From Octopus sinensis (lineage: Eukaryota): a stretch of DNA of 64,000 nucleotides. The stretch is from NCBI RefSeq assembly GCF_006345805.1, contig NC_043017.1, positions 6,448,001 through 6,512,000 of the forward strand, given 5' to 3'. This document shows, in pieces, positions 25,235 through 26,556 of this stretch. The position numbers were made by a program. The first letter of the stretch is position 1. Every line of letters begins with the position of its first letter.

Positions 25235-26556
25235 TAGCAATTAAGGACAACTACTTTAAGGAAAACTTAACAAGAAATTGTCAGGTAGATAGCGTAAAAA
25301 CCTCATAAGAGAAAAAATTTCGAAAATAATTATTTCTTATTGAACATATTAATTTATATATAGAGGGCATTATATATACATGCCAGAAGGCATTATATAT
25401 ACACATGCCAAACGCTAAGAGGGACAATTAGTCATTTCTACCAAAAATATTACTAATCCCACCGAATGCAATTTTTCAAAGTAAAACATTTAAAAAATAT
25501 AGACCTGTATCACAGTGATTTCATACTTACGTAATCATCAGCAGGCCTGAATGTATTATAAATAAACAACGACCCTGCCCTGCTTAAGCCGATCATCTAA
25601 CTGCTCGACATCAACGAAGCACATGGGTGAGTTTACATATATTACAATCCGGATAAATGGCAAACTTTTACGAATTGCATTTCGGGAGAGGAAAAGTTTT
25701 TTCGGAATAAAAATTTAGCATTAAGGACACTACTTAATAAGAAAACTTAACAAGAAATTGTCAGGTAGATAGCGTAAAAACCTCATAAGAGAAAAAATTT
25801 CGAAAATAATTATTTCTTATTGAACATATTAATTTATATATAGAGGGCAATTTATAATATTGTTTATTTATAATACATTCAGGCCTGCTGATGATTACGT
25901 AAGTATGAAATCACTGTGATACAGGTCTATATTTTTTAAATGTTTTACTTTGAAAAATTGCATTCGGTGGGATTAGTAATATTTTTGGTAGAAATGACTA
26001 ATTGTCCCTCTTAGCGTTTGGCATGTGTATATATAATGCCTTCTGGCATGTATATATAATGCCCTCTATATATAAATTAATATGTTCAATAAGAAATAAT
26101 TATTTTCGAAATTTTTTCTCTTATGAGGTTTTTACGCTATCTACCTGACAATTTCTTGTTAAGTTTTCCTTATTAAGTAGTTGTCCTTAATTGCTAAATT
26201 TTTATTCCGAAAAACTTTTCCTCTCCCGAAATGCAATTCGTAAAAGTTTGCCATTTATCCGGATGTAATATATGTAAACTCACCCATGTGCGTCTTATGT
26301 CGAGCAGTTAGCTGATCGGCTTAAGCGGGGCAGGTCGTTGTTTATTCATAATACATTCAGGCCTGCTGATGATTACGTAAGTATGAAATCACTGTGATAC
26401 AGGTCTATATTTTTAAATGTTTTACTTTGAAAAAATGCATTCGGTGGGATTAGTATATTTTTTGGTAGAAATGACTAATTGTCCCTCTTAGCGTTTGGCA
26501 TGTGTATATATAATGCCTTCTGGCATGTATATATAATGCCCTCTATATATAAATAG

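What the first reader, a model, noticed from the sequence alone, without database searches (positions are those of the whole stretch)
25235..26554. Retrozyme-like array: tandem hammerheads 478 nt apart inside GPCR-A intron 2, sense to the gene
Seen: an ORF-less ~478-nt unit is repeated in tandem with an inverted arm. Each unit has a canonical-core type I HHR (7-bp stem I, CUGAUGA, GUAA-capped stem II, GAAA, near-palindromic stem III, AUA site). The two + copies would cut after 25921 and 26399, releasing a 478-nt monomer. Established: non-LTR retrozymes with type I HHRs produce circular RNAs in several metazoans, and Penelope pLTRs carry similar HHRs. Inference: this is a cephalopod retrozyme or non-autonomous Penelope family whose monomer could be excised from receptor pre-mRNA and circularised. 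The antisense arm is transcribed first and has one HHR complement, so it could mask one ribozyme and leave the other free.
Basis: partly seen in the sequence, partly recalled or inferred. Interest (0 to 1): 0.9.

Follow-up and report, generated by a model that had tools for sequence, protein, structure and literature searches.

The report
Octopus intronic hammerhead retrozyme array
A short, non-coding mobile repeat carrying a self-cutting hammerhead RNA motif sits head-to-head in the last intron of an octopus neuropeptide-receptor gene; it is a new member of a known class, the animal "retrozymes", not a new kind of element.

Summary
A 478-nt, ORF-less, AT-rich unit occurs as four blocks: two on the minus strand (25237-25569, 25570-25856) and two on the plus strand (25860-26337, 26338-26554), head-to-head and flanked by (TA)n. 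Each arm has a complete hammerhead core (three identical copies). Predicted cuts after 25921 and 26399 would release 478 nt. My descriptor finds only these three sites in 64 kb, and 1 of 200 shuffles gave any site.

The motif is not fully canonical. Helix II has 3 bp with a U.U at its base, the isolated MFE fold is not the hammerhead fold, and Rfam gives no hammerhead hit at any threshold tried.

The array does lie in the 6.8-kb intron between the TM7 exon and the tail exon of a tachykinin-receptor-like gene, with the plus copies in sense.

Best reading: a young non-LTR retrozyme, i.e. a non-autonomous Penelope-dependent element, inserted into a (TA)n microsatellite as a twin-priming-like inverted pair.

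In the folded pre-mRNA model the arms form about 490 bp of dsRNA that buries one ribozyme. Monomer release from this locus is therefore doubtful.

I found no paper on cephalopod retrozymes. Cleavage, circles and genome copy number remain untested.

The parts
25146..25236 (.). Left flanking (TA)n microsatellite. Its last 11 nt (25226-25236) recur at 26557-26567, so they are a possible target-site duplication.
   Evidence: The 11-mer has 54 matches in the window, so the duplication is only suggestive.
25237..25569 (-). Block A: inverted copy of unit positions 1 to about 335. Its RNA-sense 3' end abuts the left (TA)n.
   Evidence: blastn 98.6%. 313 nt are 100% complementary to 25860-26172. Alignment.
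25501..25548 (-). Hammerhead copy on the minus strand (A17 = 25508). On the + transcript this stretch is the antisense of the ribozyme.
   Evidence: Descriptor hit. 99.7 bits with my own model R1.
25570..25856 (-). Block B: inverted copy of unit positions 194-478, upstream in RNA sense of block A. The 478-to-1 junction is the same as in the + arm.
   Evidence: blastn 95.5% over 286 columns. 8 substitutions and 7 indel columns against block C.
25850..25875 (.). Central head-to-head junction. The 10-nt ATTTATAATA at 25850-25859 is repeated at 25866-25875 (unit positions 7-16). This is microhomology where the two 5' ends meet.
   Evidence: Read; alignment.
25860..26337 (+). Block C: the one complete 478-nt unit.
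25881..25928 (+). Hammerhead 1, with predicted cut between 25921 and 25922. In the MFE of the whole array it sits in the apical loop and is not masked.
25922..26399 (+). Predicted 478-nt monomer between the two + cleavage sites.
   Evidence: Circular MFE -116.9 kcal/mol against -89.3 +/- 5.7 for 100 shuffles (z -4.9; 0 of 100 reach it). 62% of bases paired. GC 32.6%.
26338..26554 (+). Block D: second + copy, unit positions 1-218. It ends in the unit's own TA-rich stretch next to the right (TA)n.
   Evidence: blastn 97.2%. 215 of 224 columns identical to block C.
26359..26406 (+). Hammerhead 2, with predicted cut between 26399 and 26400. It is fully paired to 25501-25548 in the MFE of the whole array.
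26557..26600 (.). Right flanking (TA)n microsatellite, beginning with the 11-mer shared with the left flank.
24016..24184 (+). Older hammerhead-less fragment of the same family (unit positions about 120-308, about 74% identity). It also lies between (TA)n runs, in the same intron.
   Evidence: blastn E 8e-15. nhmmer E 3.2e-9 for unit 133-308 against 24029-24184.
21010..27838 (+). Host intron of the tachykinin-receptor-like gene 'GPCR-A'. Flanking exons are 18756-19442 (TM1-5), 20801-21009 (TM6-7) and about 27839-27934 (C-terminal tail).
   Evidence: tblastn with database proteins P0001, P0002 and P0004, exon by exon, plus splice signals.

Best explanation
This is a young insertion of a non-LTR retrozyme: a non-coding, non-autonomous retroelement with a 478-nt unit. 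In this class the multimeric RNA is cut to unit length by a type I hammerhead, can be ligated into a circle, and is copied back into DNA by the machinery of Penelope-like elements (PLEs).

Shown here:
- the repeat architecture;
- a complete hammerhead catalytic core with three helices, in one polarity only, identical in all three copies;
- exact 478-nt spacing of the cleavage sites;
- low GC and no ORF;
- a predicted circle far more stable than shuffled controls;
- an intronic, sense location.

Inferred, step 1 (insertion). The locus arose in one complex event by target-primed reverse transcription into a (TA)n microsatellite. Both RNA-sense 3' ends (unit positions about 335 and 218) lie at the outer (TA)n flanks. 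Both 5' ends meet head-to-head at 25856/25860 with 10 nt of microhomology. This is the topology of twin priming. It is also the topology of the 'inverted 5'-truncated copy next to a partial tandem' described for PLEs.

The template was probably a multimeric transcript X-Y-Z of a diverged source array, not one circle. The minus arm then equals X(194-478)+Y(1-335) and the plus arm equals Y(1-478)+Z(1-218). That explains why blocks A and C (both Y) are virtually identical while B and D differ from C by 3-5%.

Inferred, step 2 (activity). The ribozyme is probably weak as a single motif because helix II has a U.U at its base and only 3 bp. It probably works better as a dimer through its near-palindromic helix III.

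Inferred, step 3 (fate in the host transcript). In the receptor pre-mRNA the two arms would form about 490 bp of dsRNA that buries one + hammerhead. This locus would therefore more likely give a single cut or a long dsRNA than a free 478-nt circle. Productive circles, if any, would come from longer direct arrays elsewhere in the genome.
For: Architecture and copy identities.

Hammerhead: 3 sites found against a mean of 0.005 in 200 shuffles. My own covariance model finds no other copy in the window; the next best hit scores 20.5 bits with the core deleted, against 99.7 bits for the three copies. The motif is on one polarity of the unit only.

Dimer: homodimer MFE -29.9 against 2 x -11.1 kcal/mol, with an intermolecular 5+5-bp helix III.

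Circle: z = -4.9, 0 of 100 shuffles reach it, GC 32.6%, longest stop-free stretch 48 codons.

No coding partner: no RT/endonuclease ORF in or beside the array. The ORFs of 90 aa or more between 22.7 and 30 kb read as repeat translations; I judged this by eye and did not Pfam-scan them. The nearest Pfam hits are a LINE zf-RVT at 21909-22664 and a sub-threshold GIY-YIG at 38167-38538.

(TA)n at both ends: pure (TA) runs of 6 or more units cover 3.8% of the window, and both ends lying within 12 nt of one by chance is about 0.005. A second, older fragment of the family also lies between (TA)n runs.

Literature read:
- PMC7229834, sections 14-15 and passages: non-LTR retrozymes are tandem repeats with type I hammerheads, GC below 45%, circles of about 170-400 nt that are highly self-paired, and are present in a mussel. 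The axolotl HHR_Amex2 has the same U.U at the base of helix II and cleaves 22% in 1 h as a monomer, and much better as a dimer.
- PMC8557442, passages: PLE insertions are partial tandems with an adjacent inverted 5'-truncated copy and favour microsatellites, (TA)n for Naiads. Cephalopods carry PLE families.
- bioRxiv 10.64898/2026.07.22.740005, abstract and first part of Results: retrozyme families of 51-972 bp are related to PLE pLTRs.

Whole-array fold: 491 inter-arm pairs. Hammerhead 2 is 48 of 48 nt paired to the antisense copy, and hammerhead 1 pairs only internally.
Against: Rfam 15 gives no hammerhead hit at gathering score over the window, nor at E up to 10 in 1.6 kb or in 81 nt.

Helix II lacks the usual 10.1-11.1 pair and has two A-U pairs and one C-G pair.

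The isolated 63-nt MFE (-11.1) pairs core UGAU with AUCA instead of forming helix III. The hammerhead fold is 2 kcal/mol higher, and only about 0.5% of the modelled ensemble holds all three helices.

All three copies are identical, so there is no covariation.

Only about 1.3 and 1.46 units are present.

The 478-nt unit is longer than the 170-400 nt quoted for invertebrate circles.

No eukaryotic genome or transcriptome could be searched, so multi-copy dispersal, linkage to a PLE terminus, cleavage and circles are all unshown.

The near identity of blocks A and C could also come from gene conversion or a later DNA-level inverted duplication.

The possible 11-nt duplication uses a word that occurs 54 times in the window.

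The 2026 preprint reports relative depletion of retrozymes from introns in Xenopus.
Confidence: 0.72

Rival explanations
1. The array is a fragment of an autonomous Penelope-like element: its pseudo-LTR or terminal region, left as a solo or truncated copy. It would not be an independent non-autonomous family.
For: The tandem-plus-inverted layout and the (TA)n flanks are PLE hallmarks (PMC8557442 passages). The 2026 preprint finds retrozymes and pLTRs to be sister sequences. A GIY-YIG-like ORF fragment lies 12 kb away at 38167-38538 (Pfam E 0.0011, below the cut-off; atlas cluster with GIY-YIG on 52% of members).
Against: The repeat period is 478 nt, with the same 478-to-1 junction in both arms, not the several kb of a PLE. 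No RT or endonuclease ORF lies within or next to it. The motif has a real 4-bp helix III, whereas PLE hammerheads are described as minimal variants lacking helix III (PMC7761336 passages).
Confidence: 0.08
2. It is a local tandem or inverted duplication, or a satellite, whose hammerhead-like motif is inactive or a chance resemblance. Nothing is cleaved or circularised.
For: No Rfam hit. U.U at the base of a 3-bp helix II. The MFE is not the hammerhead fold. There is no covariation. No expression data are available.
Against: All conserved core positions and all three helices are present in the right order. 1 of 200 shuffles gives any such site in 64 kb. The motif sits in exactly the kind of repeat in which active type I hammerheads are known. 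A natural ribozyme with the same U.U is active (PMC7229834 section 15). An older dispersed fragment argues for mobility.
Confidence: 0.1
3. The inverted arm is an assembly artefact (a fold-back chimera of long reads), and the real locus is a simple direct array.
For: 313 nt of perfect complementarity between the arms.
Against: The structure is not a symmetric palindrome. The arms start at different unit phases at the centre (194 against 1) and end at different phases outside (about 335 against 218). Blocks B and D differ from C by substitutions and indels. Distinct (TA)n flanks lie on each side.
Confidence: 0.05
4. It is a fold-back or MITE-like DNA transposon with long inverted arms made of subrepeats, inserted at a TA site.
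For: Long inverted arms built from tandem units, with TA-rich flanks.
Against: The outer termini are not inverted copies of each other: the left arm runs 119 nt further into the unit than the right. No terminal inverted repeat is shared at the ends. The hammerhead and the circularly continuous unit are unexplained by this model.
Confidence: 0.03

Closest known systems
Metazoan non-LTR retrozymes (coral, mussel, axolotl; Cervera and de la Pena 2020, PMC7229834)
   Same: Type I hammerhead in head-to-tail repeats of a few hundred bp. GC below 45%. No ORF, LTR, PBS or PPT. The predicted circle is highly self-paired. The host phylum Mollusca is already represented by Mytilus. The U.U at the base of helix II matches axolotl HHR_Amex2.
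   Different: The unit (478 nt) is longer than the 170-400 nt quoted for invertebrates. Only 1.3 and 1.46 units are present, arranged head-to-head. Rfam models do not score it. No RNA evidence is available. The cephalopod host is not reported in any paper I could search.
Penelope-like elements and their pseudo-LTR hammerheads (PMC4209133, listing and abstract only; PMC8557442; PMC7761336)
   Same: Partial tandem plus an adjacent inverted 5'-truncated copy. Insertion into microsatellites, (TA)n for Naiads and a hypothesised linker-mediated bias for Neptune. Type I hammerheads that may act as dimers.
   Different: No RT/GIY-YIG ORF. The period is 478 nt. Helix III is present (4 bp plus a 3-nt loop), whereas PLE motifs are minimal.
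Newt/salamander satellite 2 hammerheads (as described in PMC7229834 section 15)
   Same: Tandem repeats of about 330 bp whose hammerheads cleave poorly alone and well as dimers. Here a dimer through helix III is predicted to be 7.7 kcal/mol better than two monomers.
   Different: Those have a 1-bp helix III and tens of thousands of copies. Here helix III can also close on its own.
L1 twin priming (recalled from general knowledge, not from a call)
   Same: The inverted 5' segment and the direct 3' segment meet head-to-head, with both RNA-sense 3' ends at the target flanks.
   Different: Here the two segments overlap by about 335 nt of the same unit, and the presumed enzyme is a PLE RT with a GIY-YIG nuclease, not L1 ORF2p.
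Intronic hammerheads of amniotes (mentioned in the PMC7229834 introduction)
   Same: A hammerhead in sense within an intron of a protein-coding gene.
   Different: Those are single, conserved, non-repeated motifs. This one is a young repeat insertion.

Membership tests
Hammerhead ribozyme, type I | Core C3-U4-G5-A6-N7-G8-A9 between helices I and II | tested here: met
   CUGAUGA at 25888-25894, 26366-26372 and the minus copy.
Hammerhead ribozyme, type I | G12-A13-A14, the A15.1-U16.1 pair, and H17 not G at the cleavage site | tested here: met
   GAAA 25907-25910, U 25920, A17 25921; triplet AUA.
Hammerhead ribozyme, type I | Open-ended helix I with closed hairpin helices II and III | tested here: met
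   Helix I 7 bp. Helix II UAC/GUA plus a GUAA loop. Helix III 4 bp plus a 3-nt loop.
Hammerhead ribozyme, type I | Standard base pair at 10.1-11.1 closing helix II | tested here: not met
   U25895 opposite U25906. A natural precedent with activity exists in axolotl HHR_Amex2.
Hammerhead ribozyme, type I | Match to the Rfam hammerhead covariance models | tested here: not met
   No hammerhead family listed at gathering score or at E up to 10.
Hammerhead ribozyme, type I | Covariation supporting the helices | tested here: inconclusive
   The three copies are identical over the motif. No other copies could be fetched.
Hammerhead ribozyme, type I | Site-specific self-cleavage | not testable with these tools
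   Needs in vitro transcription.
Non-LTR retrozyme | Hammerhead-bearing unit of a few hundred bp in head-to-tail repeats | tested here: met
   478-nt period in both arms, with an identical 478-to-1 junction.
Non-LTR retrozyme | Low GC (below 45%); no ORF, LTR, PBS or PPT | tested here: met
   GC 32.6%. Longest stop-free stretch 48 codons. No terminal direct repeats other than the unit itself. PBS and PPT were not searched specifically.
Non-LTR retrozyme | Unit-length RNA predicted to be highly self-paired | tested here: met
   Circular MFE z = -4.9, 0 of 100 shuffles reach it, 62% of bases paired.
Non-LTR retrozyme | Multi-copy, dispersed in the genome | tested here: inconclusive
   One extra degenerate fragment at 24016-24184. 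No eukaryotic genome collection was available.
Non-LTR retrozyme | Accumulates as circular RNA | not testable with these tools
   Needs RNA data.
Autonomous Penelope-like element | RT plus GIY-YIG ORF between the pseudo-LTRs | tested here: not met
   No such ORF in or beside the array.
Autonomous Penelope-like element | Partial tandem with adjacent inverted 5'-truncated copy; microsatellite target | tested here: met
   compared with the description in PMC8557442. This is a shared insertion signature, not proof of membership.
Plant LTR retrozyme | Type III hammerheads inside about 350-bp LTRs, with PBS, PPT and a 4-bp TSD | tested here: not met
   The topology is type I. There are no LTRs.
Viroid-like / HDV-like circular RNA | Ribozymes in both polarities of the unit | tested here: not met
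   The descriptor finds the motif in one polarity of the unit only.

The most novel reading that the evidence does not exclude
The family is currently active in Octopus and is the first cephalopod retrozyme. This locus would preserve the insertion intermediate of the class: twin-primed reverse transcription of a multimeric retrozyme RNA by a Penelope-type GIY-YIG/RT into (TA)n, with an 11-bp duplication. In addition, the roughly 490-bp intronic dsRNA with a free ribozyme at its apex would act on the host gene. It would cut the receptor pre-mRNA between the TM7 and tail exons and offer a long ADAR/RNAi substrate, contributing to the truncated isoform or the decay of this receptor paralogue.
Probability: 0.12. 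Interest if true: 0.65.

Novelty: new member of a known kind. Interest (0 to 1): 0.4.

Why it matters
Retrozymes are a recently recognised route to abundant circular RNAs in animals, and it is still unsettled which enzyme mobilises them.

A cephalopod family would extend their range within molluscs.

More usefully, this locus looks like a very recent insertion: the two Y-unit copies differ by one 2-nt indel over about 335 nt. Its geometry is readable. The outer 3' ends lie in (TA)n, the 5' ends meet head-to-head, there is a possible 11-bp duplication, and the units are non-identical. That pattern points to a Penelope-type target-primed mechanism acting on multimeric RNA rather than on a monomer circle, and it can be checked genome-wide.

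For the host, an intronic inverted repeat that can form about 490 bp of dsRNA, in an animal known for heavy A-to-I editing (recalled), is a plausible editing or silencing substrate.

None of this changes the class. It is an ordinary member with an informative structure.

Tried and rejected
Rfam. The whole window at gathering score gave 0 hits. The 1.6 kb around the array at E up to 10 gave 24 hits, all microsatellite-like miRNA, snoRNA or other chance matches, with no hammerhead. The 81 nt around hammerhead 1 gave 4 chance hits and no hammerhead. I keep this as evidence against a canonical motif.

My own covariance model R1, built from the three identical copies, was run over the window with filters off. 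It gave 46 matches at E up to 10. Only the three copies are real. The rest are microsatellite matches of 20.5 bits or less with the core skipped. There are therefore no further or older hammerheads here.

Search for a PLE in the window:
- Pfam on 7 ORFs gave only zf-RVT (a LINE, 21909-22664) and a sub-threshold GIY-YIG (38167-38538).
- The AT-rich ORFs at 13143-15235 (minus strand) gave nothing in Pfam.
- The atlas placed them among unnamed eukaryotic clusters.
- A 'longer' homologue search found 6 proteins of 463-726 aa, one of them from Octopus bimaculoides.
- Pfam on five of those six proteins, P0008-P0012, gave nothing useful.

I could not name that ORF family and draw no conclusion from it.

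Target-site duplication: the 11-mer abutting both ends occurs 54 times in the window, so I rate it as suggestive only.

Rejected readings: assembly fold-back artefact, fold-back/MITE transposon, and solo PLE terminus. See the rival explanations.

Not done:
- No eukaryotic genome, transcriptome or repeat library was available.
- Genome contigs holds only bacteria and archaea and was not scanned.
- Copy number, other loci, linkage to PLE termini, empty orthologous sites and RNA evidence therefore stayed unchecked.
The supplementary figures and tables of PMC7229834, PMC8557442 and the 2026 preprint may list species or families, possibly cephalopods, that I could not see.
- The joined spliced receptor model was not built or searched. 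Exons were handled one by one.
- Structure prediction, complex prediction and fold search were not relevant and were not used.

Literature claim. 'No paper on cephalopod retrozymes' rests on five searches:
- retrozyme/hammerhead/cephalopod, 176 papers with at least 2 terms, 25 listed.
- 'hammerhead ribozyme' + octopus, 5 papers, none on such elements.
- badly chosen terms, uninformative.
- retrozyme + cephalopod, 2 records, both Craig et al. 2021.
- retrozyme + octopus, 3 records, none describing one.

The giant squid genome paper lists 235 Rfam 'hammerhead 1' hits without analysis (passage).
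Full report
WHAT IS THERE. One complete 478-nt unit lies at 25860-26337 (block C). It is followed head-to-tail by unit positions 1-218 at 26338-26554 (block D, 97.2%). Upstream, on the opposite strand, lie unit 1-346 at 25569-25226 (block A, 98.6%; the true end is about 25237) and unit 194-475 at 25856-25574 (block B, 95.5%). On the minus strand B is followed by A across the same 478-to-1 junction as C to D. 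Arms 25257-25569 and 25860-26172 are 100% complementary over 313 nt. The whole structure is bounded by (TA)n runs at 25146-25236 and 26557-26600. The unit has 32.6% GC and no stop-free stretch longer than 48 codons, even read around the circle.

THE HAMMERHEAD. From, the motif reads as follows:
- helix I: 25881-25887 with 25922-25928 (7 bp, one of them G-U);
- core: CUGAUGA at 25888-25894;
- helix II: U-A, A-U and C-G capped by GUAA (25896-25905), closed at its base by U25895 opposite U25906;
- GAAA at 25907-25910;
- helix III: AUCA-CUG-UGAU at 25910-25920;
- A17 at 25921.

The second + copy has A17 at 26399 and the inverted copy at 25508. The 63 nt around the motif are identical in all three copies, except that the T run just 3' of helix I is one T shorter in copy D. 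A descriptor I wrote requires CUGANGA, helix II of at least 3 bp with one mismatch allowed at its base, GAAA, A15.1-U16.1, helix III of at least 2 bp, H17 not G, and helix I of at least 5 bp. It finds exactly these three sites in the 64-kb window on both strands. 200 dinucleotide-preserving shuffles gave a mean of 0.005 sites: 1 of 200 had one site, and 0 of 200 had one with a 7-bp helix I. The descriptor is post hoc and the three copies are one event, but a complete core sitting in a tandem repeat is not a chance pattern. The motif occurs in one polarity of the unit only.

WHAT SPEAKS AGAINST A FULLY CANONICAL, ACTIVE RIBOZYME. Rfam 15 reports no hammerhead family at gathering score over the whole window. 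It also reports none at E up to 10 in 25100-26700 or in the 81 nt 25865-25945. Helix II is short, AU-rich and lacks the usual 10.1-11.1 pair. The isolated 63-nt RNA has an MFE of -11.1 kcal/mol in which helices I and II form but the core UGAU pairs with AUCA. The hammerhead fold scores -9.1, and only about 0.5% of the modelled ensemble holds all three helices. Nearest-neighbour models ignore the tertiary core, so this is a caution and not a refutation. There is no covariation to test.

WHAT SPEAKS FOR ACTIVITY. [quoted passage not shown] It cleaves 22% in one hour as a monomer and much more efficiently in dimeric constructs (PMC7229834, section 15). Here helix III is a near-palindrome. The predicted homodimer forms a 5+5-bp intermolecular helix III while keeping helices I and II, at -29.9 against 2 x -11.1 kcal/mol. 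I therefore expect weak single-motif and better double-hammerhead cleavage. This is an inference.

THE UNIT AS AN RNA. The 478-nt monomer between the two + cleavage sites (25922-26399), folded as a circle, has an MFE of -116.9 kcal/mol against -89.3 +/- 5.7 for 100 shuffles (z = -4.9, 0 of 100 reach it). 62% of its bases are paired. The complementary polarity is similarly structured, with z = -5.1. This fits the 'highly self-paired' circles described for the class (PMC7229834 section 14). The sense strand contains five runs of five or more T. By general knowledge of Pol III termination, that makes Pol III an unlikely source of multimers. Read-through from a host Pol II gene is one plausible source.

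GENE CONTEXT. The ORF at 18633-19445 is 99% identical to 'tachykinin-like peptides receptor 86C isoform X2 [Octopus sinensis]' (P0001), so the window is from an Octopus genome. This places TM1-5 at 18756-19442 and TM6-7 at 20798-21009. It places a C-terminal tail exon at 27833 onwards, with 12 of 22 residues identical to P0004 (E 0.028) and a 36% match to P0002 over 81 columns. The splice signals fit. There is an acceptor ...ttttcag|GTT at 20800/20801. There is a donor AGA|GTAAGT at 21009/21010. A pyrimidine tract plus CAG|GAT lies at 27838/27839, and the junction reads ...[14 protein letters not shown], as in the relatives. A convergent paralogue on the minus strand has the same exon pattern (45460-44691, 42294-42082, 35785-35711).

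HOW THE LOCUS PROBABLY AROSE (inference). In RNA sense, the 3' end of the minus arm (unit position about 335) abuts the left (TA)n and the 3' end of the plus arm (unit 218) abuts the right (TA)n. The two 5' ends (unit 194 and unit 1) meet at 25856/25860, where a 10-nt word (25850-25859) repeats unit positions 7-16. This is the topology of twin priming (recalled for L1). It is also the topology of the 'inverted 5'-truncated copy ... adjacent to the upstream pLTR' drawn for Penelope-like elements. Those elements also show 'insertion bias for microsatellites', (TA)n in Naiads (PMC8557442 passages).

Pure (TA) runs of six or more units cover 3.8% of the window. Both ends lying within 12 nt of one by chance is about 0.005. 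The 11-mer at 25226-25236 recurs at 26557-26567, directly outside both ends. It may be a target-site duplication, but the word has 54 matches in this microsatellite-rich window.

The pattern of identities bears on the template. A differs from C by one 2-nt indel over about 335 nt. C and D are identical at 215 of 224 columns. B differs from C by 8 substitutions and 7 indel columns in about 285. This fits a multimeric template X-Y-Z from a diverged source array, copied twice in overlapping registers: minus arm X+Y, plus arm Y+Z. It does not fit rolling-circle copying of one monomer circle, which would make all blocks equal. Gene conversion between the arms, or a later DNA-level inverted duplication, would also explain the near identity of A and C.

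A second, older, hammerhead-less fragment of the family lies at 24016-24184 (about 74% identity, nhmmer E 3.2e-9), again between (TA)n runs in the same intron. It supports a dispersed, mobile family.

No RT or nuclease ORF lies in or beside the array. With a 478-nt period it cannot be a tandem of an autonomous PLE.

WHAT IT WOULD DO IN THE HOST TRANSCRIPT (model only). The MFE of 25226-26560 (1,335 nt, -857 kcal/mol) is one long hairpin with 491 pairs between the arms. Block B pairs with the distal part of C, and block A pairs with D. Hammerhead 2 is paired over all 48 nt to the antisense copy at 25501-25548. Hammerhead 1 lies in the roughly 190-nt apical loop and pairs only with itself. In the alternative register (A with C, 313 perfect bp) the roles swap. 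Either way, at equilibrium only one of the two + ribozymes is free. Co-transcriptional kinetics could differ. A single cut would sever the intron between the TM7 and tail exons. The long dsRNA is a plausible ADAR or small-RNA substrate. Both effects are untested.

COMPARISON WITH WHAT IS KNOWN. The element meets the descriptive criteria of metazoan non-LTR retrozymes:
- a type I hammerhead;
- tandem units of a few hundred bp;
- GC below 45%;
- no ORF or LTR;
- a self-paired predicted circle.

These criteria come from PMC7229834 (passages and sections 14-15) and PMC7761336 (passages). The class is already known in a mollusc, Mytilus. The 2026 preprint (abstract and the first part of Results read) reports family consensus lengths of 51-972 bp. 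It reports that retrozymes are sister to PLE pseudo-LTRs. It also reports a relative depletion from introns in Xenopus, although 42-44% of copies there overlap introns. The differences here are a weak helix II, failure of the Rfam models, a long unit and the head-to-head double insertion.

I found no paper describing such elements in cephalopods. The giant squid genome paper only counts 235 Rfam 'hammerhead 1' hits. Supplements, which may list more species, were closed.

VERDICT. It is a new member of a known kind. Interest is moderate, mainly for the readable insertion geometry and the new host group.

Noticed in passing
window 20915-20950: The TM6-7 exon of the host receptor changes frame between 20899 and 20923, relative to its paralogue and to database relatives. 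It runs into TAG at 20948-20950 just before TM7. This is either a real frameshift (a decaying paralogue; the named O. sinensis isoform X2 of 253 aa stops after TM6) or a 1-nt assembly indel.
   Followed up: partly
window 45460-44691, 42294-42082, 35785-35711 (minus strand): A convergent paralogous receptor gene has the same three-exon pattern. It is 59-60% identical to the host gene over TM1-5 and 78.5% identical to an O. vulgaris 'substance-K receptor-like' protein.
   Followed up: partly
window 24016-24184: An old hammerhead-less fragment of the same repeat family (about 74% identity), also bracketed by (TA)n. The 11-mer seen at the array's ends recurs at 24200-24210.
   Followed up: partly
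window 38167-38538 (+): A short ORF with a GIY-YIG-like motif (Pfam E 0.0011, below the cut-off; atlas neighbour cluster with GIY-YIG on 52% of members). It may be a remnant of a Penelope-like element, and it lies inside the long intron of the paralogous receptor.
   Followed up: partly
window 13143-15235 (minus strand): Three consecutive AT-rich, asparagine-rich ORFs (369, 189 and 105 aa) have relatives of 463-726 aa in invertebrates, including O. bimaculoides. This Pfam copy gives them no name. They look like a retroelement-type ORF broken by stops, but I could not classify them.
   Followed up: partly
window 21709-22664 (+): A LINE-type reverse-transcriptase tail (zf-RVT, E 9e-8) lies in the same intron, 2.6 kb upstream of the array. 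Another LINE-like C-terminal ORF at 40041-40847 has no Pfam hit.
   Followed up: no
window 21162-21672, 22826-23931, 46338-46838: Long tetranucleotide-type satellites that translate as IYLS repeats occur on both sides of the LINE fragment in the host intron, and again near the paralogue.
   Followed up: no
window 25226-26560: As RNA, the whole array is predicted to fold into a hairpin with 491 inter-arm base pairs (longest perfect helix 108 bp). That is a likely substrate for A-to-I editing or small-RNA production in a neural gene's pre-mRNA.
   Followed up: partly
window 53245-53344: A run of 100 N (an assembly gap or masked stretch). It was left untouched.
   Followed up: no
window 57400-58600 and 61300-62150: Kilobase-scale low-complexity tracts that translate as T/P/H- or G/S-rich runs on both strands. 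They look like simple-sequence DNA and not genes.
   Followed up: no
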